Below are positions 2,281-53,867 of a DNA stretch of 64,000 nt, piece by piece. Location of the stretch: the IMG/VR virus record IMGVR_UViG_3300033463_000046. One strand, written 5' to 3'. The notes under the pieces were generated by a model, which saw only the letters and a list, made by a program, of their open reading frames with translations, was not told the origin of the DNA and ran no database searches. The position numbers and the translations under genes were made by a program. The DNA is from a virus (Duplodnaviria > Heunggongvirae > Uroviricota > Caudoviricetes). Numbering within the stretch: position 1 is the first letter of the stretch; each line of letters opens with the position of its first letter.

Positions 2281-2370
2281 TGGTTGGGATAGTAGGATTC
2301 GAACCCACACTTACGCCTTCAGAGGGCTACGGATTTAGAGTCCGCTGTGCTACCATTACACCATATCCCA
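2281..2370 (-). tRNA. suppressor tRNA, anticodon CTA (reads UAG); type II, about 20-nt variable arm; CCA encoded
   Basis: Reverse complement folds as acceptor tgggata/tatccca, D-stem gtgt/gcac, anticodon stem gcgga/tccgt with loop ctCTAaa, long variable arm, T-arm gtggg-ttcgaat-cctac, discriminator a, then cca. Confidence 0.8.
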
Positions 2371-8731: not shown

Positions 8732-10036
8732 ATGAAAGACAAGATTAAAGAGTTTAGAGACAAAAATCCTATATTGGATTTTGCAGCAGGCTTTATCCCA
8801 GGTGTGGGAGAAGCACAAGATGCTCATGATTTTGTACATGCTGCTAAAAAGAAAGACTTTGGAGGAATGGCATTAGCTTCTTTAGGTTTTATTATTCCAG
8901 GTGTAACTGGAGGACAATTCTTGAAGATACTTAGACCACTAACAAAAACATAGTGGGGAGCTTGGGCTGCTAAACATTTAGATGAGTTGTCTACTGTTAG
9001 ACCAAGACTTGCTGAAGGTGTTGCAAAAAATGAACCAGAAGCTGTAAAGATACATAAGACATTAGAAAAAATAGCTGATGGCAAAGTATATATTCCAGAA
9101 AAACGTGGCATTGTTAAAGATATTGACCCAGATACTCCTATTTTACCATTTGTAGATTAGAGAGGATATAACCTTACTCCTGAAGCTAGAGTAAATGCAG
9201 CTTTAGATTACGCTATAAGTACTGAAAAAGGGCGTGCTGTTCCTGGAATAATGGGAGGAGCAAAGGGAGTGCAAGGTGTAGAAGAATTAATACCAGGATT
9301 CCCAGCTTTTAAGAAAATAAATAATGTTAAAACTAGAATGGGACAATTCACTGGTGCTGACATTATTACTGCATTGTATTATAGTGGTCATGGTAAGATA
9401 AGATCTAGTAATGCTATATATGATGCTATTATGAAAGCTCCAGTATCTGGAAATGCTAAAGAATACGCCAAAGCTTAGTTAGAAGTTGTAGAAGGAATAC
9501 TATAGAAATACAGTAAAAACACTGATAAAGTTGGAGTGTTTAAAGCTACTAAATTAGCTAAGAAAGGTAGAGATAATGTTTCAGAAACAGAAAGAGCACA
9601 TTCATATGGTCTAATTCCAGATGAATTAGTTAATCCTAAAACTGATCAAGCTGTTAAAGATAGAATACATTTGGAAGAATCTTTAAACAATTTGAGTATA
9701 TGGTTTGGTTCTAAAAATGGTAATGGTGTTGCAGAATTTTATGGTCCTATTCCAATGAATTTATATTCTGGAAGTTATGGAGGAAAGAAATTTGGAGGTA
9801 GTGGTGATCATAAATTATTTGGATTTAATAATTCTATATTAGTAAAGAATTAGGATGATCTTGCAATACATATTGCTAATTCTAAAGATAAAACTATGGG
9901 ATTGGTAACTGATATTTAGGATGGTGCTGGTGTGACAAATGACGTAATATTCTAGCCATATAGGTATAGTTTAATAAGACAAAAGAAAGGTGGTCGGATT
10001 TGCCTAACTACTTCGAAGAAGCGAGGACCGTTTTAA
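8732..10036 (+). CDS. hypothetical protein carrying 8 in-frame TAG codons (amber read-through gene)
   Basis: Track ORFs 8732-8953, 9251-9478 and 9536-9853 are collinear in one frame, separated only by TAG triplets. The frame runs to TAA at 10034-10036 (1302 nt = 434 codons from 8732). The C-terminal 60 codons are less certain. Confidence 0.5.
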
Positions 10037-10110: not shown

Positions 10111-10692
10111 GTGCATTTTAAAACTCTCATTATGCAAATAGTAATTAAAAACAAAAAGTGTTCAATTGACAAAATCAAGAGAGAATATCCTGATTGCGTC
10201 ATTATTGATGTAACGAGTAAAGCTAAGGATGAGTTCAGAAAGCTTAGTCCTTTTTATCCTCATTGCAGTATTCCTGTTAATCCTATTTCTGAACAATTTT
10301 TATTTGGAGCGTCAGTAGAAGGAATTTGGCAAGGTTTGAAAGTATTTGAAGATGAAGGGCCAAGTCTATCTAGTCTTCATAATTCTTCAATGCGTGGATT
10401 AAAGAGAACAACTCGTGTACATGGTCGTTGCTTGGGACATGCTTATGGCGACATAATTGGCAAGAAATATACTTTACTTGGTTACGTAGAAGCTCGTAAG
10501 AAATTGTATGTTCCAGCCTATAAATGGGTGTTAGAGAATAAATGTGCTGATTTAGTTAATAAGATTCGTATCATAGCTCAACATAAGACAGTGATACTTC
10601 TTGATTATAATACTAATGAAGACATTGAAAATGGTAATAAACCGTTATCTCACGCTGCATTAATTAAAAAATATATTAATAAAGAAATTTAA
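10111..10692 (+). CDS. hypothetical protein
   Basis: 193-aa ORF in track. Confidence 0.55.
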   Translation: MHFKTLIMQIVIKNKKCSIDKIKREYPDCVIIDVTSKAKDEFRKLSPFYPHCSIPVNPISEQFLFGASVEGIWQGLKVFEDEGPSLSSLHNSSMRGLKRTTRVHGRCLGHAYGDIIGKKYTLLGYVEARKKLYVPAYKWVLENKCADLVNKIRIIAQHKTVILLDYNTNEDIENGNKPLSHAALIKKYINKEI

Positions 10693-11330: not shown

Positions 11331-11333
11331 AAG

Positions 11334-11407
11334 AGTCGTTTAGCTCAATTGGTAGGAGCGCAACACTATTAATGTTGAGGCCGTCAGTTCAAGTCTGACA
11401 ACGAATT
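11334..11407 (+). tRNA. tRNA, Asn-like body with anticodon loop ctATTaa (anticodon ATT, atypical)
   Basis: Acceptor agtcgtt/aacgaat (one G-A mismatch), D-arm gctc-aattggta-gagc, anticodon stem caaca/tgttg, T-arm gtcag-ttcaagt-ctgac. Paralogous to tRNAs at 23372 and 30165. Confidence 0.6.
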
Positions 11408-11409
11408 AG

Positions 11410-14564: not shown

Positions 14565-14845
14565 CTAACTTTTATGTGGTATAGTGTAAGGGTAGTCTTA
14601 CATTATCTGGATAATGTTAAAATGGGTATAGTTACATGAGATAAGAGTAGTCCAGAATGCTCCTCTGAAGTTATGTACCTTGAAGATGTAGCACGATATG
14701 AGCGTATGCTCATATTGAGAGAGTTCGAGTCTCTCTACCACAACTAGATAATAGAAGTTAAACATTTAAAATAGTTATAATTATGAAGAAGTATTTACGA
14801 AAACGCTTGTTAGGTTACACCGAGATCTAACAGCTCCAATCGTAT

Positions 14846-14936
14846 ATCGGTAAGTGCGTGGAAACAGGCGGATTACATCGGGCTTTTAACCCGAATAGCA
14901 GGGTTCGACTCCCTGTTGGAGCACAAATCAACTCCT
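14846..14936 (+). tRNA. atypically long (91 nt) tRNA-Lys(TTT)-like gene with about 19 extra nt in the D region
   Basis: Perfect acceptor gctccaa/ttggagc; anticodon arm tcggg-ctTTTaa-cccga; T-arm caggg-ttcgact-ccctg. 36 nt lie between acceptor and anticodon stem where 17 are expected. Confidence 0.45.
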
Positions 14937-15532: not shown

Positions 15533-15960
15533 CTATAATTTATGATGTATGATACGTAGAATTACAGAAGTTCGAGAAACTACTATTTATGTCGGAGACA
15601 AGCTGATAGTAGTGAAAGAAGAAGTCCACACAATTAGGATTCTTCCAGACACACCCGAGGATTAGCTGCATCTTCCTCGTTAAAATCGCGATGTAGCCGC
15701 AGAGATCCGGCACTGGTGTTAAGCGTCCGGTCATTCTTCGACCAGAATTTTCTTTTGAAATAAAGAAGCTGGCAGAGCTCAAAAGAGTGAATGCCTCTAG
15801 GATGGTAACCTGGAGGCTTTTTCTTTGAAAGTCTGATTTTGCTCATAATAGGTTGGAAAAGTTGAGAATTATCTATAATATCGCATGATATATCAATAGA
15901 TAATTTCTCAACTATTCCGGATTCATGTTGAGAACTAAATTAATTAAACGTTTAATTATT

Positions 15961-17190
15961 ATGAATGAAATTTAGAAATTTAAGCAAGGAAGAAAAGTAC
16001 TTTCTGCTAAATTCGGTGACAATTTTAAAAGAGTTGGCACAGCAAGTAATGGTTTATCTGGTATATATTTCAATCCTGACGATAATCAATTATGGAAAGG
16101 TGGATTAACTGGATATAGTAGAATAGGAGATACATATAGTTATTATTCAGGATTAGGAGGAGGTGTTATTAAAGCTTCTGACTACATTGAAAAGCCTAAG
16201 ACAGGAGTTACTACAAGAACTTCTAGTAATCCAGGTGAAATAGTAGTTAATGGTAAAAGATACGCCTCGAAAGCTGATTGGGTAAAAGAACAAAGAGCAC
16301 AAAGAGAACAACAACCATAGGAAGTAGTAATAACTGGTAGGGCTGGTAAAAGATCTGCTTCTAAAGTCACACCAAGAGGTCAGGGATATTGGGATAAACA
16401 ATACCAAGATTTCTTAGGTAAGATGACTGACGATTAGAAAGCGTGGTTAGCATAGAGAGGTATTGATTATAATTCTGCTCAACAAATGCAAACTTATTTA
16501 GCTAATCATGGTCAAGATCTTGGTAAATGGGGTGCTGATGGTAAATGGGCAGGTGCTTCCCAAGCAGCTTGGGATAATTTCGTTGCAACAACAATGAAGA
16601 ATAATCCTTTACAAACTCCTGTAAGAGATCCACAACCTACAGTTGAACCAGTAGTTGATGCTGCAGACCCATTCGGATATAAGACATCTAATCATTATGG
16701 TGATGGCTTTGCTTTAAAGAATATGGGATTCAGTAATTATGCTGGATTACAAAAATTTGCTATGGGTGATGATCAATTTGCTAAAGACTTACGTGAAAGA
16801 TTTGGTCAAGATGTAAGTCAGTGGGATCAAGCAGCTGTAGAAGGCGCATTGAATGTAAGTGGTCGTTATCGTGGTGGTAGAAGTGGCGACTTTGGTGATA
16901 TGGCTCGTAGTATGCAAGATTGGGCTGCTAAGAAAAATGCTGCATATGATCAAAAAGAATTAGCTTCTAGAACTGGTGCAAGTGGTACAACATATTCTTC
17001 TCCAGAAATGATGAAGAAATTTGAGAGTATTAAAATATCCCCAGAAGTTAAATATGGTTAGAGTACTAAGTTTGATTTTAGTAATATGAAGTTTAATTCT
17101 GGATTTGGTAATACTGGCACTAATACTCTTGGAGATGCTGGGGCAGGTACTATGAACAATCAAAAACAATTAGCATATGCGGATAAGTAA
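15961..17190 (+). CDS. peptidoglycan-binding-domain protein with in-frame TAG codons (recoded)
   Basis: One frame from ATG 15961 through track ORF 16486-17061 to TAA at 17188. In-frame TAG at codon 5 and four more. Motif MQTYLANHGQDLGKWGADGKWAGASQAAWDNFV resembles PG_binding_1. Confidence 0.5.
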
Positions 17191-18235
17191 ATTACAATAC
17201 GGAAATTCACTTTTGGAGGCAAGTAATCGACAAAGAGGAAAAGTTCAAGCTTGGGGTAATAGAGGTATTCAGCAAGTTGGTATGCAAGCTAAACAAGCTG
17301 AAGAAGAAGTTATTCAATATAAAAAAGCTACTGCTCGTGCTAATAAGAAGACAAAGACTCCTATGTAGTCAAATAACTTGGCTAAACTTCAAGACCAATT
17401 ATGGAGAATTGGAGCATTCAAAGGAGTTAAAGATAGAAGAGGAAATGAATCTACATACTAGACTGCTGTTGATGGTATCAAAGGTAATATGACCAATACT
17501 GCTATTGCTAATGCTCAGAAAATGGGTTTCACTATTAACAATGATGGTAGTCTTAGTAAGACATCTGATACATCATCAAAAGTCACAAGTACTGCTAAAA
17601 CACCAGAATAGTCTTCTAAAAAGACTAGATTTATGACATCTAGTGGTCCAATGATGCCTGCTCAAGTAATGGCACAAGCTTCAGAAGCTATTGCTAATAA
17701 CAAGACACTACAAAATACTGCAGACTTCTTAGGACATAATCCTGCTGCTATGGCTTTAGAAGATTTAGATAGAGCTACTTCAAACCGTTTAGCTGAATCA
17801 TTATTTGGTATAAGACCTTTCAAAGGTAGAACTGTTACTCGTTTACCTAATCTATAGACTGAGGAATTAAAGAAATAGGTTTTATTTGCTAGAAGTAAAG
17901 GTTAGAATAACTTTAATTCTGATATGTATAAAGCTATGTATGGTTATAATTATGCGTCTCGTAATGGAAAAGGTGGACAAGATAGAAGTGGATTTTGGAA
18001 TAGAATGGATACTCCTACGGGACGTCTTGAGCATACATTAGGTGCTTATGGTTTTTATGTAGATAATAATGGTGACACAATAGTTGAGGATACATACGAT
18101 TTTAATGTTGGACAAAAATAGGGAGGAGATGGAAGATATGCTGTAACCCGTAATTTCTTAGGAGAATTCGGAAGCAAATCTACTGATCCTAACGAGGGTA
18201 AAATCAAATATAGGATTAATTTAGGTAAATTATGA
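17177..18235 (+). CDS. peptidoglycan-binding-domain protein with multiple in-frame TAG codons (recoded)
   Basis: Track ORFs 17177-17368, 17633-17857 and 17924-18121 share one frame and are separated only by TAGs; the frame ends at TGA 18233-18235. LQDQLWRIGAFKG...DGIKGNMTNTAIANAQKMGF is PG_binding_1-like. Confidence 0.5.
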
Positions 18236-18928: not shown

Positions 18929-18962
18929 GGTAGCCATTCGTGAGAACAGCTACCTTATTTTT
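18929..18962. terminator. bidirectional intrinsic terminator
   Basis: ggtagc-cattcgtgagaaca-gctacc flanked by an A-run upstream and ttattttt downstream. Sits between the convergent tRNA array and the amidase gene. Confidence 0.6.
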
Positions 18963-19556
18963 GTAAGTATTTTAAAATACCTTCAACATGAAGTCTTACA
19001 ATATCTTGAAAACCTCTGTCACTAAGGAGATAATCAACATCTGATTTATTATCTTGGAAGAAGTTTTCAGTAAGAACAGCAGGACAAATAGTATGTTTAA
19101 GAACATATAAATGTGCTTCCTTATCTGGATCTCCATCAGAAAAATCAGTGCGCATTCTTTTATCTTGTGCATTATATTTGGCAGCATTATACAAACAGGT
19201 AGCTAAATCATCTGCTTTTGTTTTACCAGGAGTAGTATAAACTTCCCAGCCTGTTCCAGTGTGCCATTTACCATCTGATGATGCAGCATTAACATGAATA
19301 CTTACATATATGCAATCCCCATATACTTTGCATAAATCATTTACAACCTTACAACGTAGACAAAGTTCCTATGATTGAGTAACATTTAAATCATCATCTT
19401 CAATGTCTATAAATACCTAATAACCATAATCCTATAGGATTGCTTTTACTGCTGCAACAATTTCTCTAGAATAAGCGTATTCTTTAAGTCTTTTGTCTGG
19501 TGAACATTTACCAGGTGTACTTTTTAAATGTGCAGTACCTAAAATAATTGTTTTCA
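18955..19556 (-). CDS. N-acetylmuramoyl-L-alanine amidase (Amidase_3-like endolysin) with 3 in-frame TAG codons
   Basis: Minus-strand ATG at 19556. MKTIILGTAHLKSTPGKCSPDKRLKEYAYSREIVAAVKAIL-x-DYGY-x-VFID...VSIHVNAASSDGKWHTGTGWEVYTTPGKTKADD..., where x marks a TAG. This continues into track ORF 18955-19194 and ends at TAA. Shows the Amidase_3 blocks. Confidence 0.75.
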
Positions 19557-19642
19557 TAGTAAAATAGTTATTTAATTTGTTTAACATAAATCTGAATACT
19601 AAATTAGTCAAAATTGTCTCTAACTAAAAATTATTTATTATT

Positions 19643-20298: not shown

Positions 20299-20688
20299 AT
20301 GGCTAATTTATTTATTTTAAAAACAGTTCATGACAATGGTGAGTACAACGTTTGCTTAGGAGAATCTTATAGCAAAATTCATTTAACTGGTATTAAAGAT
20401 ATATCAGATAATTGTGCTACACATGAGATTATTCGAGAGTGTGCAGAATATATTAATGAAACTGACCATCCTTTCGATACTTTAGATTTTGTTGTTTCTG
20501 GAGATGGTAATGTTTATGATTTGTCCAGAAATCCTTGGGGATTTGAAACTGGTGTTAAATGTTATTACATAACTTTAGGTGGAAATACTGTTGATAAAAT
20601 TGTCCCTAAAGAGTATGAGAAAGAAGAACTTGATGAAGTTTGGAAGGAACTCATTGATGATCCTGATTTAAATTGGGATTGGGATTAG
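20299..20688 (+). CDS. hypothetical protein
   Basis: 129-aa ORF. Confidence 0.55.
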   Translation: MANLFILKTVHDNGEYNVCLGESYSKIHLTGIKDISDNCATHEIIRECAEYINETDHPFDTLDFVVSGDGNVYDLSRNPWGFETGVKCYYITLGGNTVDKIVPKEYEKEELDEVWKELIDDPDLNWDWD

Positions 20689-20714
20689 TAATTTGTGGAT
20701 TAATTCCACAAACA

Positions 20715-28600: not shown

Positions 28601-28863
28601 AGCAAGACAAATTAAAAGCAGCTACACTTCAGCAAACTAGAGAGGAAGATCTTAAATCCGAGTTTGAAGCAATTAAAAACAAGGATGTTGAGAAAGCAAC
28701 AACTAAGATTGTTAATATTAAAATCAGAGTAGGATGTGGCTGTGGAGGTTCTTATGACAGATATCATGTAGAAGTTCCAATTGATTCTGAAATTGAAGAC
28801 GGAGACTACTTTGATGGCTTTGAAGATTGGATGGATAATATTGAGGATGGATGGGTTTATTAG
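28597..28863 (+). CDS. hypothetical protein with CxC-rich segment
   Basis: 88 aa; ATGA overlap with the upstream gene. Confidence 0.45.
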   Translation: MKQDKLKAATLQQTREEDLKSEFEAIKNKDVEKATTKIVNIKIRVGCGCGGSYDRYHVEVPIDSEIEDGDYFDGFEDWMDNIEDGWVY

Positions 28864-29225
28864 AGTATTTAATATTGGTGGCATTATGTGCTGCTAGTAT
28901 TAGTTACACTATCAGCTACACCTCAATATTTCTTGGTTTTAGAGAATGGATTTCAAAGTTCCATCATAAGTTAGAAGAACTTATCCATTGTCCTTATTGT
29001 TTGAGTCATTACATAATACTTACAATAATGTTTACTACTAAGGATATTAGTAGTAAATTAGTACCAATAACAGATTTTATTATATATAATTTCTTATTTA
29101 CTTGGTTTTGTATTGTATGTATTACTAGTCTTTTACACTGCATAATGCTTATAGCATATCGTCCTATTATGCAATATATGGCTGATAGGAAAATTGCTAA
29201 AATCAAATTTAAAAAGGGGAAATAA
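28851..29225 (+). CDS. membrane protein
   Basis: 124 aa with multiple TM segments. Confidence 0.5.
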   Translation: MGLLEYLILVALCAASISYTISYTSIFLGFREWISKFHHKLEELIHCPYCLSHYIILTIMFTTKDISSKLVPITDFIIYNFLFTWFCIVCITSLLHCIMLIAYRPIMQYMADRKIAKIKFKKGK

Positions 29226-29837: not shown

Positions 29838-29912
29838 GGGGAGAAAGCTTAAGTGGTATACAGCAGAGGCCTGTTAAGCCTAAGATAGTGGGTTCGAATC
29901 CCTCTCTCCCCG
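29838..29912 (+). tRNA. tRNA-Asn (GTT)
   Basis: Acceptor ggggaga/tctcccc, anticodon arm gaggc-ctGTTaa-gcct, T-arm gtggg-ttcgaat-ccctc, 3-bp D-stem. Confidence 0.7.
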
Positions 29913-31016: not shown

Positions 31017-32990
31017 ATGACATTGACAACAATGATTATCGCGGCAGTTATTGTACTGCTTGTGATTTTAACAATTATCGGACTCTTGTCTCGTTATCGC
31101 AAGTGTCCAAGTGACCAACTCTTAGTTGTGTTTGGTAAAGTGGGTGGAAAATCTGCTGCCAAGATATATCCTGGAGGTGGTGTGTTTGTATGGCCTGTCA
31201 TTCAGGACTACAAAGTTATGTCGATGAAACCATTTCAGATTAACTCGGAAGTAGTTGGTCCTGATAGTGGTATGATTCAGACTCATGTGAAGGTAGCTTT
31301 AACTACTGCAATCTCTCAAGATCCCACTATTCAGCAAAATGCTGCTGCTCGTTTCTTAAGTGCTGACAAACAAGAAATTCAGAAACAGATTCAAACCATT
31401 CTTGAAGGTGAAGTAAGATTAATTATTGCTTCATTGTCAATTGAGGAGATTAACTCCAATCGAGATGCCTTTAAGACTAAGGTTAAAGATAGTCTTGGTA
31501 CTGAACTTGCTAAGGTTGGTTATGATATAACTAATATTAACATTCAGGAAATCACTGATGAACAAGACTACATTAAAAATCTATCTAAGAAGAAGGAAAC
31601 GGAGGCAAGAGCTAATGCTGAGGCTGATATTGCTGACAAGGAAAAAGATGGAGCTATTAGAAAAGCTAAGATTAGACAAGAGCAGGAAATCCAAGTAGCA
31701 ACTGCTGATAAGGAAAGAGAGACTACAGTTTCTCAAACTAAGCAGGAGCAGGCTGTAAGAGTAGCAGAAATTGAGAAAGAACAGGAAACTCAGATTGCCG
31801 AAACTCAGAAGGCAAAGGAAGTACAGCTTTCCGAAATTGAGAAGGAGAAGCAGACTGGTATCGCTAACCAGAAGGCTCTTCAGACTGCTGCTGTAGCAAA
31901 TGCTGATGCAGATGCTGAATCTAAGAAAGCAGAGGCTGATGCTCGTAAGGTTGCAGCTGTTGCTGAACAGAAGGCAAAGGCTGAATCTTCTAAGGCAGAA
32001 TCTGAAGCAACTCAGCGTAAAGCTGTAGCCGCTGCTCAGGCAGATGCTGAAGCTACTGAGAACGAGAAGGAAGCTTTAAAGCAGACTCGTATTGCTGAAG
32101 CTAATCAGAAGAAGGAAGCTGATATTGCTAAGGCAACTCAGGAGAAGGAAGCAAAGAAAGCTGAGTATGAGTCACAGAAGCAGATTCGTAAGGCTAAGGC
32201 TGACCAGGATGCAGGTGTAGCTGAGCAGAATGCAAAGATTCTTGTTGCTGAGGCTCGTGCGAAGGCTGGTCAGGCAGAAGCTGATGCTGACAAGACTGTC
32301 CAGGTTGCTAAGATTGAAGCTGATATGAAGGCTGCTAAGACTAAGCAAGAACGTCAGTTAGAGGTTAACGAGGCTGAAGCCAAGGCAGTTGAAGCTAAGT
32401 TAAATGCTGAGCAGGTTGTTCCAGCCGAGCAGTCTAAGAAGAAGACTATCATCGAAGCAGAAGCTATTAAAGAGAAGGCAATTCTCGAAGCTGAAGCAGA
32501 GAAACAGCGTATTCTTAAGAAGGCTGAAGCCGATTCTGAGGAAATCAAACTGAAGAAGTTAGCAGAAGCTGAGGGTACAAAGCAGATTAAGCTGGCTGAA
32601 GCTGAGGGTCAGAAGGCTCTGTGGTTTGCAGAGGCAGAGGCTCTTCAGAAGAAGGAAATGGCTCCTGCACTTGCTCTGGAGAAGATGGTACAGTCATTCG
32701 GTGGTAACCCAGATCTTCTTGTTCAATACAAGATGGTTGACCAGTATAAGGGTATTGCTGAAGCTTCTGAGAAGATGCTTGAGCATATTCAGCTTGGTAA
32801 TGTCACTGTTTATGGTGACGCTACAACTGGTGCGAAGTTTGCTAAGAGCTTTATTGAGATGTTCACTCCTGGTCTTGACATCGTTCAGAATGGTTTCAAA
32901 GACAAGTTTAAGGAAGTGTTCGGTCTTGATAAGAAGTCTGAAGAACTTCCCGAAGAGAAAACTGACGAAAACTTCGAGGAGGTTAAGTAA
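31017..32990 (+). CDS. flotillin-like SPFH/band-7 protein with long E/A/K coiled-coil
   Basis: 657 aa. N-terminal TM IIAAVIVLLVILTIIGLL, SPFH block LLVVFGKVGG...GPDSGMIQTHVKVALT, then about 300 aa of EA-rich heptad repeats. Confidence 0.75.
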   Translation: MTLTTMIIAAVIVLLVILTIIGLLSRYRKCPSDQLLVVFGKVGGKSAAKIYPGGGVFVWPVIQDYKVMSMKPFQINSEVVGPDSGMIQTHVKVALTTAISQDPTIQQNAAARFLSADKQEIQKQIQTILEGEVRLIIASLSIEEINSNRDAFKTKVKDSLGTELAKVGYDITNINIQEITDEQDYIKNLSKKKETEARANAEADIADKEKDGAIRKAKIRQEQEIQVATADKERETTVSQTKQEQAVRVAEIEKEQETQIAETQKAKEVQLSEIEKEKQTGIANQKALQTAAVANADADAESKKAEADARKVAAVAEQKAKAESSKAESEATQRKAVAAAQADAEATENEKEALKQTRIAEANQKKEADIAKATQEKEAKKAEYESQKQIRKAKADQDAGVAEQNAKILVAEARAKAGQAEADADKTVQVAKIEADMKAAKTKQERQLEVNEAEAKAVEAKLNAEQVVPAEQSKKKTIIEAEAIKEKAILEAEAEKQRILKKAEADSEEIKLKKLAEAEGTKQIKLAEAEGQKALWFAEAEALQKKEMAPALALEKMVQSFGGNPDLLVQYKMVDQYKGIAEASEKMLEHIQLGNVTVYGDATTGAKFAKSFIEMFTPGLDIVQNGFKDKFKEVFGLDKKSEELPEEKTDENFEEVK

Positions 32991-35865: not shown

Positions 35866-36102
35866 ATGGAGGTAAATAATCGAATTGTAGAAATTCTTAA
35901 AGACAAATTGATGGTTGATGAAATCAGCTCTGATGATAATTTAATAATTGATCTGAAAGCAGATAGTCTTGACATAATCGAGTTAGTCATGGAATTAGAA
36001 CATGAATTTGATATTGTTATCTTAGACGAAGAAGTAGATCCTAACTTTGATAGTGTAGGTCATTTAATAGATTTCATACAAACCAAAGTAAATAACAAAT
36101 AA
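35866..36102 (+). CDS. acpP: acyl carrier protein
   Basis: 78 aa, acidic, with motif DLKADSLDIIELVMELEHEFDIVILDEE containing the phosphopantetheine-attachment DSL. Confidence 0.75.
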   Translation: MEVNNRIVEILKDKLMVDEISSDDNLIIDLKADSLDIIELVMELEHEFDIVILDEEVDPNFDSVGHLIDFIQTKVNNK

Positions 36103-36209
36103 TGGAAAATATAATTAATATTAACGAACCTTGTATTCAAGATCTTATAATCCAGAAAGGAGAATAGGATTTATGTCTTACGACAAAAGATGGTCAAATT
36201 GAGTATAAA

Positions 36210-38168
36210 TTGTTTTTAGGTGACAAAGATTCGGTGATGTTAACTCTCAACTTTGGAGATGTCTCCAGTATAGGTTGGGGTGGTACAGATAACTGGGGTA
36301 AAGATAAGCTTCCTCTATACTTAGAAAGTAATAAAGGTGCTGAGAATTATGACAGTGTATTTGTTGATAATATCACTATTCAGGAGTATGCCGGAGAAGG
36401 AAATTGGTGTAAATGCGAACTTATAAATAAAGGTAAAACGGTTCATTACGTGGCTGTAAACGAAAATCGATTGGATAAGGAACGCGTAGCATATTTCTGG
36501 CATACTACTACTGACTCTGTAGTTAATAATGGATTTAATAAAGGAAAACCAGTTGCAAAGAAATGGTGTGTGACTGTTATTCAAAATCCAGGAAAAGCAC
36601 AAGAATAGCCAAAAGAAGAAGAAAAGAAAGTTGATCTCGGAAAATATCTTTATTCAGTAGGATTATTATCGGATTTACATATTTGTAAAGCTAATAATAA
36701 TGATTCGTTAAACTGGTGGGATGAAGATGACTTTAAGAGAGCAATGAATTTATATGTAAATGATAAAAATATTAAGTTTATTGCATCTTGTGGTGATATT
36801 TCCGAAGCACAAACTAATGATAATATTAAACACCCAGAATCAACAGCAGAAACTGATTATGCTGAGTTTACAGAAATGTATGATGTACCTTATTGGCAAG
36901 TAGCAGGATTAAGATTCTTTAGTCCATTAGGTAATCATGATTTCTATGGAATGTTTGAAGGTAGACAAGGAGACACAATAACTAAAAAGAAAAACTCAGA
37001 AACTATAAACGGTTACAATGCTGGAGTAAAAGAACGTATAGGTAATTGGATTACAGGACAACAAATAAATGGAATTGTTCCAGGTAGAGGAAGAATTCAA
37101 TTTGAACTTGAGAATGGTAAGAGTACTGCAAATGGTCAAGCAGATATGAGATTCTTCTCATATAACGATTATGTAGACTTGTACGCAAAAGAAAATGGTT
37201 ATACAGGTTCAATATGGGATTCTTCTAAAGGTGGAATATCTGACAAAGCAATCGAAACTGCAAAGAAATATGTCAATAGTAATTGGAATAAAGTAAAAGA
37301 CAATTTAACTATGTGGAATGATGGCGGAGGTCACGGTCGTAATGGTTATTCTAAATTAAACTATTGGATGAAAAAAGACAATGATATTTACATATTCTTA
37401 TCAGTAGATTATGGCGATGATATATGGGGCATTAAAAGTGGTTGGCATGATAGAATGATTCATGCAAGAACTATTATTAATCTTAATGAAGATGATCCAT
37501 ATGTCAAGAGAATGAAAGAGTATGTTGGAGATACTGGTTATTCAAAAGCTGATGAAGCTTATAACTATCAGTATTATAGTCCTAACACTCTTATATGGTT
37601 GAAGGAACTTCTTGAGAATAATAAGGATAAGAAGATTTACATCTTCACTCATCACTTTATGCCTAATCGTGTTGGTAATGGTGTTGGACTTGCTAAAGAT
37701 GGAAATTGGTATTACTCTGTAATCAATCCTGATGGAGTAAAAGAGAATGGTTATAATAAGGGATCTAATGCATTAACTGGTATTGAGTTCTGGTTTATTG
37801 ATAAGCTTATGAATCAATATAATAATGTGATATGGTTCAGTGGTCATTCTCATATAAGTTTTGCATCTGGTGCTAACTTTGATAATCATGATTACTCTAT
37901 AGTAAATCCATCTGAGAAAAGTGAATATGTATATACTAAGAGTAATACAATTCCAACTAAAGAATCAGCATGGTGTGTAGCACTTCCATCACTTTCTAAA
38001 CCAAGAGGTATTGATAATGGTCAATCAGTAAGACATTATGAAGATGCTGAAATGGGTATTATGGAAGTATATGAGAAAGGTGTTAAGATAAAAGGATATA
38101 AAATCCGAGAAAATAACAAAGATGTCAACGAGTTACTTGTTGAAAAAGAAATTCAATTAATCAATTAA
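36210..38168 (+). CDS. calcineurin-like metallophosphoesterase with N-terminal extension; one in-frame TAG (recoded)
   Basis: Track ORFs 36210-36608 and 36744-38168 are in the same frame (534 nt apart), joined through TAG 36606-36608. The connecting segment encodes GLLSDLHI (motif I). Downstream: GNHDF and GHSH motifs. Confidence 0.6.
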
Positions 38169-38943: not shown

Positions 38944-39015
38944 GATCGTATAGCTCAATGATAGAGCAGCGGTCCTCAAAACCGAAGGTTTAGGGTTTGA
39001 ATCCCTATACGATCA
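38944..39015 (+). tRNA. tRNA with anticodon loop ccTCAaa (anticodon UCA, reads UGA/UGG); candidate opal suppressor or Trp-UCA
   Basis: Acceptor gatcgta/tacgatc, D gctc-aatgata-gagc, anticodon stem cggt/accg (4 bp), T-arm taggg-tttgaat-cccta. Position 33 is C. Confidence 0.6.
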
Positions 39016-39094
39016 CTCCCCACTGTGAAGTGGCATCTCCTTTCATTAAAAACAAATGTCACTAAATTTCTCGGGACTCAGAGGAGTCCCACTT

Positions 39095-48787: not shown

Positions 48788-49369
48788 GGTCTTCCTATTA
48801 AATGGGGCTGACAGGATTAGACGGATAATGAAGGTAATAAGAACATGCAAAGGCTGTATGGAAAGACATACAAATCAATTAAATGGCAAGAACAATGTTT
48901 CTTTCGCCATCACAAGCTACAGAGTAGCTGCGTGAGGCGTGGGGTCGTGATTAACCCTATCATCCAATAATCACAAAGTCTACGATTCTCAGTGTCTCCG
49001 ACTATAAACACAGCAACTGAGTGGTGGCAGGTGCGACTTCGGTCAATCCCCCAGTCATTGCCTAAGACTTTAAAAAAGGCACTGGTGAAGAAAACACTCC
49101 AAATTGAAAAGCATGTACAATTCTTATAGAATAGTTGTTGCGGACGGCGGTTCGATTCCGCCCAGTTCCACTCCTGTGATCTGACGGAGCATGCGGTCAC
49201 TAAAAGGCATGCGTCAATTCTCACTTAGACTCAAGAAGTGATAGGTTGTACAACTGAAGGGAATGAATTTTTTGCAGGTAAGGAAACCGCCATCTCAAGT
49301 TTTCTAATCTATAAATCATAAAACTAGAGAAAAGGGTAAGTAGGTGTACGGGACACCTACGTAAATATA

Positions 49370-50708: not shown

Positions 50709-50780
50709 CTGGCCCTTTGTGTAATGGTTAGCACACGGGACTTTGACTCCCGTAGTACAGGTTCGAATCCTGTAGGGCCA
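50709..50780 (+). tRNA. tRNA-Gln (TTG)
   Basis: Acceptor tggccct/agggcca (U1-A72), D gtgt-aatggtta-gcac, anticodon arm cggga-ctTTGac-tcccg, T-arm acagg-ttcgaat-cctgt. Confidence 0.85.
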
Positions 50781-50827
50781 ACGTTCTGTTTGAACATAGG
50801 TTTTAAGTTTTTAGTTATTTATTTGCG

Positions 50828-52927: not shown

Positions 52928-53467
52928 ATGGAATCAATAACTATTGATGGAAAACTTTACAAACTAGTTCCTGTTGATAATCCTTTCGAGCAACTCGATA
53001 GGGGTTATGAGTTTTCAACACTTGCTGCAAAAGAGAAGGCAGACCTCTATAAAAGCAAGTACAATGATTACAAAAATATTCCGACAAATGAACTAGTAAG
53101 CCGTATTATTAAGATTGACCAAATGTCTGAGTTAGATTACTGTTTGTATGCAGTTGATACTTGGACAAATTGGGAAGAACTTTATAAAGCGGTAAAAACC
53201 CAGATTCATTGTCCTTACAAGTCTTTAACACAATTTAGACAAATGGGACTAGACTTAGTAAAAGAATCATTTGAGAGAAAAGAATCTATCGCTACTGGCT
53301 ACTTTGAAGTTAAGTATTATGATGGGTATGAGGATAATGACCATGAATGGTGCTATCCTGAAATTTCTCTTAATGTTGTCTTTTATGGAGCGACACATCA
53401 ATTAGATAATAAGGATAGAGATTATTTAGTTCCTGGAGATGATCAAACTTACAACAACGCAGGCTAG
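52928..53467 (+). CDS. hypothetical protein
   Basis: 179-aa ORF. Confidence 0.55.
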   Translation: MESITIDGKLYKLVPVDNPFEQLDRGYEFSTLAAKEKADLYKSKYNDYKNIPTNELVSRIIKIDQMSELDYCLYAVDTWTNWEELYKAVKTQIHCPYKSLTQFRQMGLDLVKESFERKESIATGYFEVKYYDGYEDNDHEWCYPEISLNVVFYGATHQLDNKDRDYLVPGDDQTYNNAG

Positions 53468-53867
53468 AGCTGTTGCCTCTAAAATCAGAGAGAGACTTAT
53501 AGATCATGATTCGCAAGTGAGAAAAGATCTAAGAGAAGAATACATGAACTCTGATGATTACAAAAACATGCTCAAAGAAGCACACGAAGTTGCTATCACT
53601 ATGCGTCAAGCTAGTCTAAAACTCGGAATAACTATGGGAGTAGGTATATCTGGAAGATATAGTACTCATTATATTTATGAGGAGGAGGACGTTAAAAAAG
53701 TGGAAGAAAATATTGTAAGTCCACTTGTTGACAAATATGTTGAAGAGCATCGTAATTTTAAAGGTATCCCATCTGAGGATAAATTAGTTACTGACTTGAT
53801 TTTTGAGTCATTAACAAGTGAAGGAATTGAAGACTTAATGAACAAATTTATAGAACAATATCTATGA
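53439..53867 (+). CDS. hypothetical protein
   Basis: 142-aa ORF. Confidence 0.5.
   Translation: MIKLTTTQARAVASKIRERLIDHDSQVRKDLREEYMNSDDYKNMLKEAHEVAITMRQASLKLGITMGVGISGRYSTHYIYEEEDVKKVEENIVSPLVDKYVEEHRNFKGIPSEDKLVTDLIFESLTSEGIEDLMNKFIEQYL

What the first reader, a model, noticed from the sequence alone, without database searches (positions are those of the whole stretch)
8732..10036. Second recoded gene: 434-codon ORF with 8 in-frame TAGs
Three track ORFs (8732-8953, 9251-9478, 9536-9853) and the pieces between them share one frame and are separated only by TAG. The frame reaches TAA at 10034. The density of TAG with total absence of TAA/TGA over 1.3 kb is not expected by chance in an AT-rich genome.
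Basis: seen in the sequence. Interest (0 to 1): 0.6.

Follow-up and report, generated by a model that had tools for sequence, protein, structure and literature searches.

The report
Amber-recoded phage gene, TAG read as glutamine
This is one real 434-codon gene of a large gut phage in which seven TAG "stop" codons are read as glutamine by the phage's own suppressor tRNA, a known kind of recoding; the protein's function is unknown.

Summary
The frame 8732-10036 (+) is as described, except that it holds 7 in-frame TAGs, not 8. The eighth stop is the terminal TAA at 10034.

It is one gene:
- Full-length homologues of 410-468 aa align from end to end.
- All eight TAG-delimited pieces are under purifying selection (dN/dS 0.06-0.31).
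- Eight homologous genes read as DNA carry 5-11 TAGs each, mostly at other positions, and never TAA or TGA.

TAG means glutamine. An otherwise invariant Gln column is CAA here and TAG in five of nine genes. The window also encodes a tRNA(CUA) at 2281-2370 (-) whose 5' half matches the phage's own tRNA-Gln.

This is genetic code 15, already described for gut phages, so the recoding is a new member of a known kind.

The protein matches no family or fold. About 50 N-terminal residues recur in phage ADP-ribosyltransferase and tail-lysozyme proteins. The gene is always followed by a NADAR-fold gene. I infer, weakly, a late-made delivered effector.

The most novel point lies outside the finding. The suppressor tRNA carries a second hairpin that looks like a glutamine anticodon loop. 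All 46 Gln-bodied long-arm amber suppressors sampled from IMG/VR have it.

The parts
8732..10036 (+). The recoded gene: ATG, 434 sense positions (7 of them TAG), stop TAA.
   Evidence: Full-length homologues P0001-P0012 (42-98% identity). dN/dS 0.08-0.20.
8951..9955 (+). Span holding the seven in-frame TAG codons: 8951-8953, 9158-9160, 9476-9478, 9503-9505, 9851-9853, 9917-9919 and 9953-9955, read as Gln.
   Evidence: One search gives the positions. In some searches the TAGs at 9503 and 9851 align with CAA in homologues, and an otherwise invariant Gln column (codon 29, CAA here) is TAG in five of the nine genes.
8771..8929 (+). N-terminal conserved module (about residues 14-66: LDFAAGFIPGVGEAQDAHDF...GMALASLG..P..GG). 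It is shared with many otherwise unrelated proteins.
   Evidence: hhalign probability 96% to residues 467-516 of P0097, an ART-PolyVal protein. Also found inside 1.4-2.1 kaa proteins with Phage_lysozyme2.
8930..10033 (+). C-terminal region of about 370 residues with no family or fold match. It ends in a conserved KKGG[RKN] motif.
   Evidence: no match. (the motif recurs in divergent subfamilies).
2281..2370 (-). Suppressor tRNA with anticodon CUA, 90 nt, Gln-derived. It has an extra arm, GCC-CUCUGAA-GGC, in the variable region.
   Evidence: Its D-arm and U1/G2 match the window's tRNA-Gln(UUG). It is syntenic in related loci.
50710..50782 (+). The phage's ordinary tRNA-Gln(UUG), the closest relative of the suppressor within the window.
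10132..10692 (+). Downstream gene with no TAG: DUF6939, NADAR fold. It is the conserved neighbour of the recoded gene.
15925..18235 (+). Two further TAG-containing genes: 15925-17190 with 5 TAG and 17177-18235 with 7 TAG. Function unknown.
18955..19587 (-). Amidase_3 endolysin gene with 3 in-frame TAGs. This is independent proof that TAG is sense in this genome.
   Evidence: The Pfam Amidase_3 match (8e-20) covers residues 14-205 and runs across the TAG positions.

Best explanation
The window comes from a large phage of the human or animal gut. Related contigs are 135-195 kb. The window holds 34 tRNA genes and a tmRNA gene, and its replicative helicase is distantly crAss-like.

In this phage TAG is a glutamine codon (genetic code 15). 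The stretch 8732-10036 is one 434-residue gene with seven such codons.

On a host ribosome alone the mRNA would end at codon 74. It yields the full protein only when the phage's Gln-derived tRNA(CUA) (2281-2370, - strand) is made and charged.

The reading frame, the Gln meaning and the presence of the decoder are shown here. That this makes the gene a late gene is inferred from the published model for such phages.

The product's function is not established. My best guess, about 0.3, is a delivered or late-acting effector. It joins a short adaptor module, shared with phage 'polyvalent' ADP-ribosyltransferase and tail-lysozyme proteins, to a swappable C-terminal domain. It may work together with the NADAR-fold protein encoded just downstream.
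For: Single gene:
- Homologues P0001-P0012 cover 97-100% of the protein.
- Coding score is positive in seven of the eight pieces; the last 26 codons score -0.23 and rest on conservation and selection.
- dN/dS is 0.08 to a 98% relative and 0.20 to an 83% relative. Every piece is at 0.31 or below.

TAG is sense in relatives:
- Eight homologous genes read as DNA hold 5-11 TAGs each, no TAA/TGA, and all end in TAA.

TAG means Gln:
- With TAG masked as X during alignment, Gln is the most enriched residue opposite TAG (5.3-fold), followed by His, Glu, Met and Lys.
- An otherwise invariant Gln column reads QQXXXXQXQ across the nine genes.
- CAA and TAG swap between 83-98% identical strains.
- CAG is absent from this gene, which has 6 CAA and 7 TAG.

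Decoder:
- The tRNA(CUA) scores 64 bits in Rfam and is closest to the window's tRNA-Gln.
- A tRNA(CUA) gene was found in 8 of 10 related loci, in seven of them on the - strand upstream of the gene as here.

Genome-wide use:
- No long gene in the window depends on TAG to stop. Three TAGs at gene ends are backed by TAA within 0-4 codons.
- The Amidase_3 endolysin has 3 TAGs inside its Pfam match.
- Published background: Borges et al. preprint 10.1101/2021.08.26.457843 and Peters et al. PMC9523058.

Function:
- The N-module is shared with ART-PolyVal and Phage_lysozyme2 proteins.
- Different C-domains sit in the same genomic slot with different downstream genes: DUF6939 in 9 distinct loci, DUF1810 in 3.
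- DUF6939 has the NADAR fold.
Against: Recoding:
- There is no protein-level evidence. No peptides spanning a TAG have been examined.
- BLOSUM scoring alone cannot separate Gln from Lys or Glu.
- The suppressor's 16-18 nt variable arm is unusual for a Gln tRNA and is a normal feature of Ser, Leu and Tyr tRNAs.

Timing:
- Nothing here measures expression. No virion structural genes were recognised near the gene.

Function:
- No profile similarity to ART-PolyVal domains.
- The structure model is only moderate (pLDDT 64).
- DUF6939 is a very large family (7476 hits). Phages are known to carry orphan NADAR-like genes as counter-defence (PMC11825919), so the adjacency may not mean partnership.
- In one relative with a third C-domain class, DUF6939 lies 2.9 kb away rather than adjacent.
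Confidence: 0.85

Rival explanations
1. A decayed pseudogene that has accumulated nonsense mutations.
For: Seven stop codons in 1.3 kb under the standard code.
Against: All stops are TAG and none is TAA or TGA (P about 1e-4 given 7 stops). dN/dS is 0.08-0.20 in every piece. Eight further genes keep the same open frame with TAGs at other positions. A functional endolysin domain in the same window also carries TAGs.
Confidence: 0.01
2. Several independent small genes in the standard code that happen to share a frame, with TAG as a true stop.
For: ORFs of 57-105 aa with their own start codons exist at 8732, 8987, 9251 and 9536.
Against: Conservation and coding signal run through the stretches between these ORFs and across each TAG. 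TAG positions are not conserved between homologues, whereas the protein is. Pieces of 8, 11 and 21 codons cannot be genes.
Confidence: 0.01
3. TAG is sense but codes for something other than Gln. Candidates are Ser, Leu or Tyr (suggested by the long variable arm), pyrrolysine (ARAGORN's label), or Lys/Glu.
For: The suppressor has a long variable arm like class II tRNAs. Lys and Glu are also frequent opposite TAG. 18 of 64 long-arm amber suppressors in IMG/VR do have Ser/Leu/Tyr-like bodies.
Against: The body of this tRNA (U1, G2, D-arm) matches tRNA-Gln and not the window's Ser, Leu or Tyr tRNAs. Ser, Leu and Tyr are not enriched opposite TAG (0.64, 0.94 and 0.42-fold). An otherwise invariant Gln column alternates CAA and TAG. 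The extra arm itself displays a Gln anticodon triplet. No Pyl-tRNA features were seen, and no pyl genes were seen in the window proteins that were scanned.
Confidence: 0.05
4. On function: the protein belongs to the lysis machinery or is a membrane protein, not a delivered effector. The hydrophobic N-module would anchor it in the membrane.
For: Lysis genes are the class most biased toward recoded stops. Endolysin genes lie 2-9 kb away in this and related loci. The N-module has two hydrophobic stretches.
Against: The N-module's conserved positions are Asp, Gln, Gly and Pro with charged spacers, which is unlike a transmembrane helix. The same module occurs inside giant soluble-type proteins and next to ART domains. 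No holin or spanin family match was found.
Confidence: 0.15

Closest known systems
Genetic code 15 (TAG to Gln) in gut phages: crAss-like phages, Lak megaphages and other clades (Ivanova 2014 from my own knowledge; Borges et al. 2021/22; Peters et al. 2022, PMC9523058).
   Same: In-frame TAG occurs in only some genes, including the endolysin. A phage-encoded tRNA(CUA) is present. The genome has low GC. TAG is avoided as a terminator. The replication genes at 57-62 kb are essentially TAG-free.
   Different: This phage lineage has no relative in the INPHARED collection for this gene. Its helicase is only 28-31% identical to crAss-like ones. Its suppressor tRNA has an extra Gln-anticodon-like arm that I did not find described.
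Polyvalent proteins and virion-packaged effectors of phages, such as T4 Alt and ART-PolyVal proteins (Iyer et al. 2017, PMC5512222).
   Same: It shares a module of about 50 residues that sits next to ART-PolyVal domains and inside giant Phage_lysozyme2 proteins.
   Different: It has only one recognisable module plus one unknown domain, not 2-15 known domains. No ART signature was found. Packaging into virions was not tested.
Polymorphic toxin-immunity cassettes and DarT1-NADAR toxin-antitoxin pairs (Schuller et al. 2023, PMC11543638).
   Same: The N-terminus is conserved, the C-terminal domain is swappable, and the downstream small gene changes with it (DUF6939/NADAR fold versus DUF1810). A NADAR-fold gene lies directly downstream.
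   Different: No toxin domain was identified. DUF6939 is widespread on its own. A 96-nt gap separates the two genes here. One C-domain class lacks an adjacent partner.
E. coli supE-type amber suppressors derived from tRNA-Gln (own knowledge).
   Same: Both are Gln tRNA bodies with a CUA anticodon that insert Gln at UAG.
   Different: The phage tRNA keeps a second hairpin showing CUG or UUG, the normal Gln anticodons.

Membership tests
Code-15 (TAG to Gln) recoded phage gene | A conserved ORF interrupted only by TAG, under purifying selection. | tested here: met
Code-15 (TAG to Gln) recoded phage gene | TAG aligns with Gln codons in homologues. | tested here: met
   An otherwise invariant Gln column alternates CAA and TAG. 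Gln is 5.3-fold enriched opposite TAG.
Code-15 (TAG to Gln) recoded phage gene | A suppressor tRNA with anticodon CUA is available. | tested here: met
   It is Gln-derived. A tRNA(CUA) gene was found in 8 of 10 related loci.
Code-15 (TAG to Gln) recoded phage gene | TAG is not relied on as a terminator. | tested here: met
   (window only). Every TAG after a good ORF is followed either by more coding sequence or by TAA within 0-4 codons.
Code-15 (TAG to Gln) recoded phage gene | Gln is found at TAG positions in the protein. | not testable with these tools
   This needs proteomics.
Polyvalent / virion-injected effector proteins | Shares domains with known polyvalent proteins. | tested here: met
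   (the N-module only).
Polyvalent / virion-injected effector proteins | Several catalytic domains of disparate activity in one polypeptide. | tested here: not met
   No known catalytic domain was detected.
Polyvalent / virion-injected effector proteins | [quoted passage not shown] | not testable with these tools
   No structural genes were recognised in the neighbourhood.
ADP-ribosyltransferase toxin with NADAR antidote (DarT1-NADAR-like) | The neighbouring gene has the NADAR fold. | tested here: met
ADP-ribosyltransferase toxin with NADAR antidote (DarT1-NADAR-like) | The protein has an ART fold or ART motifs. | tested here: not met
   The only hint is a BFVD hit to a PolyVal ART protein at E 0.085 over 83 columns. 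I did not see which residues aligned; it may reflect the shared N-module.
Polymorphic toxin-immunity cassette | Conserved N-terminus, variable C-terminus, and a downstream gene that co-varies. | tested here: inconclusive
   Class A C-domains pair with DUF6939 in 9 distinct loci. Class B pairs with DUF1810 in 3 loci. Class C has no adjacent partner.
Pyrrolysine decoding | A tRNA-Pyl architecture and pyl genes. | tested here: not met
   ARAGORN's 'Pyl' label only reflects the CUA anticodon. The tRNA body is Gln-like. No pyl domain was found in the window proteins scanned.

The most novel reading that the evidence does not exclude
The seven TAGs are decoded by an unusual kind of suppressor. It is a tRNA-Gln derivative that reads UAG with a CUA anticodon. 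It also keeps a second, miniature anticodon arm in its variable region, whose loop reads like Y32-U33-CUG/UUG-A37.

This second arm could serve as the glutamine identity signal for the host's glutaminyl-tRNA synthetase. It might do so directly, or through an alternative cloverleaf used during charging. That would address the open question of how recoded phages get their suppressors charged.

In a pattern scan of IMG/VR that left the arm free, all 46 Gln-bodied long-arm amber suppressors had CUG (37) or UUG (9) at the hairpin apex. They carried 16 different closing stems and 29 different acceptor stems. Only 2 of 18 Ser/Leu/Tyr-bodied suppressors had the motif.
Probability: 0.4. Interest if true: 0.8.

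Novelty: new member of a known kind. Interest (0 to 1): 0.42.

Why it matters
- Annotation: a standard-code gene caller would split this gene into fragments. Read correctly, it shows that the window belongs to a code-15 phage lineage that is absent from isolate and reference phage collections.
- The gene family: it marks a hypervariable slot in these phages. A fixed adaptor module is joined to exchangeable C-terminal domains, and the neighbouring gene changes with them. That is where host-manipulating or conflict functions are usually found.
- The decoder tRNA: its conserved glutamine-anticodon-like extra arm gives a concrete, testable idea of how such phages get a stop-codon-reading tRNA charged with glutamine.

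Tried and rejected
No result for the protein:
- Pfam and PHROGs gave no significant hit.
- tblastn against 50,697 phage records found nothing for the protein, for its N-module, or for an N-module+ART protein.
- A pattern-based search of IMG/VR found nothing.
- A PDB sequence profile search found nothing.
- BFVD Foldseek gave E 0.085 or worse.
- The afdb50 library was not available.

Rejected ideas:
- The C-domain as an ART: hhalign against an alignment of N-module-linked ART-like domains gave probability 0.2%. The LYYSGHGK / SSNAIY motifs do not have ART-PolyVal spacing and are modelled as helices.
- TGA recoding, despite a tRNA(UCA) at 38944-39016: no frame has two well-coding pieces joined by TGA.
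- A second copy of the N-module near the gene: none within about 10 kb in any locus.

Other dead ends:
- The closest INPHARED relatives of the suppressor tRNA are ordinary tRNA-Leu(CAA) genes of jumbo phages and are not informative.
- Promoter and terminator scans around the gene did not differ from shuffles.

Full report
**Observation.** Translating 8732-10036 (+) gives 434 sense positions and eight stops. Counting codons shows that seven are TAG (8951, 9158, 9476, 9503, 9851, 9917, 9953) and the eighth is the terminal TAA at 10034. Everything else is as described, including the three listed ORFs.

The frame is not a chance feature. The region's composition predicts a TAA or TGA every 16 codons. 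That gives P about 8e-13 for 434 codons without one. None of 2000 shuffles was free of them. The five other frames of the same stretch carry 13-46 TAA/TGA each.

**One gene.** A search of 5.8 billion proteins returned 12 homologues covering 97-100% of the recoded translation (410-468 aa, 42-98% identity). The alignment runs through every TAG junction and into the last 26 codons, which hold a conserved KKGGR motif.

A codon log-odds model trained on the window's long standard ORFs scores the finding's frame positive in seven of the eight pieces. The last 26 codons score -0.23 and rest on conservation and selection instead. Over the whole gene the two other + frames score negative; the complementary frame 1 is also positive (0.40 against 0.68), an antisense echo that 13 TAA/TGA close. 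Against a 98% and an 83% identical relative, dN/dS is 0.08 and 0.20. Each of the eight pieces lies between 0.06 and 0.31. Differences fall mainly on codon position 3. This excludes both a pseudogene and a row of separate small genes.

**TAG means glutamine.** I fetched the DNA of eight homologous genes. Each holds 5-11 in-frame TAGs, no TAA or TGA, and ends in TAA. Most TAGs are at different positions from ours.

- When TAG was masked as X before alignment, Gln was the most enriched residue opposite TAG (5.3-fold). His, Glu, Met and Lys followed. Ser, Leu and Tyr were not enriched.
- The most telling column is an otherwise invariant Gln in the GEAQD motif. It is CAA here and TAG in five of the nine genes.
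- Our TAGs at 9503 and 9851 align with CAA in relatives. CAA and TAG swap even between strains that are 83-98% identical.
- CAG is absent from this gene, which has 6 CAA and 7 TAG.
- Across the window, TAG-containing genes have few CAG codons (10% of CAA+CAG, against 38% in TAG-free genes, p = 7e-6) and lower GC3 (0.185 against 0.314).

**The decoder.** The window holds 34 tRNA genes and a tmRNA gene. One tRNA, at 2281-2370 on the - strand, has anticodon CUA. ARAGORN labels it "Pyl" only because of that anticodon. Its U1, G2 and D-arm match the window's own tRNA-Gln(UUG) at 50710-50782, which is its closest relative in the window. A tRNA(CUA) gene is present in 8 of 10 related loci, and in seven of them it lies on the - strand upstream of the gene, as here.

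**Whole-genome picture.**
- Other genes in the window also carry TAGs: 15925-17190 (5), 17177-18235 (7), 36102-38168 (2), and the Amidase_3 endolysin at 18955-19587 on the - strand (3). The endolysin's Pfam match spans its TAGs.
- No well-coding ORF depends on TAG to stop. Coding either continues past the TAG, or a TAA follows within 0-4 codons.
- TGA is not recoded, although a tRNA(UCA) is present.

This matches the published picture of code-15 gut phages. In those phages structural and lysis genes are recoded, replication genes are not, and a phage suppressor tRNA is thought to switch on late translation (Borges et al. preprint; proteomic validation in Peters et al., PMC9523058). The timing is inferred here, not measured.

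**Which phage.** The gene, its N-module and the suppressor tRNA have no useful match in 50,697 deposited phage records. The DnaB-like helicase is 74% identical to an unannotated human faecal contig. It is only 28-31% identical to crAss-like Bacteroides phages. Related contigs are 135-195 kb long.

The first 65 residues or so are different. They are 60-88% identical in dozens of proteins that have other C-terminal regions. A profile search of 1.8 billion representatives found the same module in two further settings:
- directly upstream of ART-PolyVal domains;
- inside 1.4-2.1 kaa proteins that carry a phage tail lysozyme domain.

These are the "polyvalent" proteins that Iyer et al. (PMC5512222) predict to be packaged in virions and injected.

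In related phages the same genomic slot holds this module fused to different C-domains, and the next gene changes with them:
- Our C-domain class, including 27-31% identical variants, is followed by DUF6939 in 9 distinct loci.
- A second class is followed by DUF1810 in 3 loci, with overlapping stop and start codons in two of them.
- A third class has no adjacent partner.

This suggests an effector-plus-antidote pair. I could not show it, for three reasons:
- The C-domain has no detectable similarity to ART domains.
- DUF6939 is a very large family in its own right.
- Phages are known to carry orphan NADAR-like counter-defence genes (PMC11825919).

I therefore rate the effector reading at about 0.3.

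**Side observation on the suppressor tRNA.** The 90-nt suppressor has a 16-18 nt insert in its variable region. The insert folds as GCC-CUCUGAA-GGC. Its 7-nt loop reads like a canonical anticodon loop with the Gln anticodon CUG.

I ran two scans of IMG/VR that left the arm unconstrained. They gave 64 distinct long-arm tRNA(CUA) genes.
- All 46 with a Gln-like body show CUG (37) or UUG (9) at the apex of the extra hairpin, and 45 of them have an A next.
- These 46 carry 16 different closing stems, 29 different acceptor stems and 14 different anticodon stems.
- Of the 18 with Ser/Leu/Tyr-like bodies, which have GNRA-type loops, only 2 contain the motif.

Related suppressors of 74-75 nt lack the arm. 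The papers on phage recoding that I searched do not mention it.

GlnRS depends on U35 and G36 (own knowledge; Jahn et al. 1991 is cited in PMC8629427). A CUA suppressor loses G36. A retained Gln-anticodon mimic is therefore a plausible identity element, but this is a hypothesis only.

**Verdict.** The recoding is a further example of a known phenomenon. The protein is an uncharacterised, modular family of moderate interest. The tRNA that reads these codons is the part most worth following up.

Noticed in passing
window 2281-2370 (-); also L001:3239-3326, L003:821-909, L005:2078-2165, L007:2948-3037 and IMG/VR loci L014-L126: The amber suppressor tRNA has a second hairpin in its variable region whose loop looks like a glutamine anticodon loop (C-U-CUG-A-A). 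All 46 Gln-bodied long-arm tRNA(CUA) genes sampled from IMG/VR show CUG or UUG there, despite many different stems. I did not find this described in the papers searched.
   Followed up: partly
IMG/VR loci (for example tRNAs numbered 13, 22, 28, 31, 32): 18 of the 64 long-arm tRNA(CUA) genes have Ser/Leu/Tyr-like bodies. Some phages may therefore read TAG as something other than Gln.
   Followed up: no
window, whole (gene lists): There are two codon-usage classes. TAG-containing genes have GC3 0.185, an AAG share of 0.27 and a CAG share of 10%. TAG-free genes have 0.314, 0.56 and 38%. TAG looks like a replacement for CAG in one set of genes.
   Followed up: partly
window 38944-39016 (+): A tRNA with anticodon UCA (a TGA reader, labelled SeC by ARAGORN) is present. 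However, TGA ends 17 of the 60 genes called, and no ORF shows coding sequence continuing across a TGA.
   Followed up: partly
window 20686-20691, 28861-28872, 53465-53482: Three genes end with TAG followed by TAA within 0-4 codons. This looks like a back-up stop for former TAG terminators.
   Followed up: no
window 48804-49171 (+): The phage encodes a tmRNA (tag peptide GKNNVSFAITSYRVAA) in the middle of an array of more than 30 tRNA genes that spans about 11-53 kb. A relative (L012) also has one.
   Followed up: no
window 11333-11408, 14833-14924, 29838-29912: The tRNA callers disagree. ARAGORN alone calls a tRNA-Asn with the unusual anticodon ATT (also present in L001 and L005) and a 92-nt 'Ala GGC' tRNA. 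Rfam alone calls a tRNA at 29838-29912.
   Followed up: no
window 31017-32990 (+): A 657-aa SPFH/Band_7 protein with a long Ala/Glu/Lys/Gln-rich tail uses CAG 40 times and CAA 11 times, the opposite of the rest of the window. It may have been acquired recently.
   Followed up: no
window 9995-10009 (KKGGR); 15961-15999 and 17177-17206; P0008, P0011, P0097: Short Gly-Gly motifs recur at module edges. KKGG[RKN] sits near the C-terminus of divergent family members. K[FY]QQGG sits just before the N-module in P0008 and P0011. Similar motifs occur at the N-termini of the two neighbouring TAG-rich genes. [FY]A.GG motifs flank each module in P0097. They may be processing sites.
   Followed up: no
window 36102-38168 (+): A 688-aa protein with 2 TAGs and motifs that look like a calcineurin-type phosphoesterase (GNHDF, SGHSH) has no Pfam or PHROG hit.
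   Followed up: no
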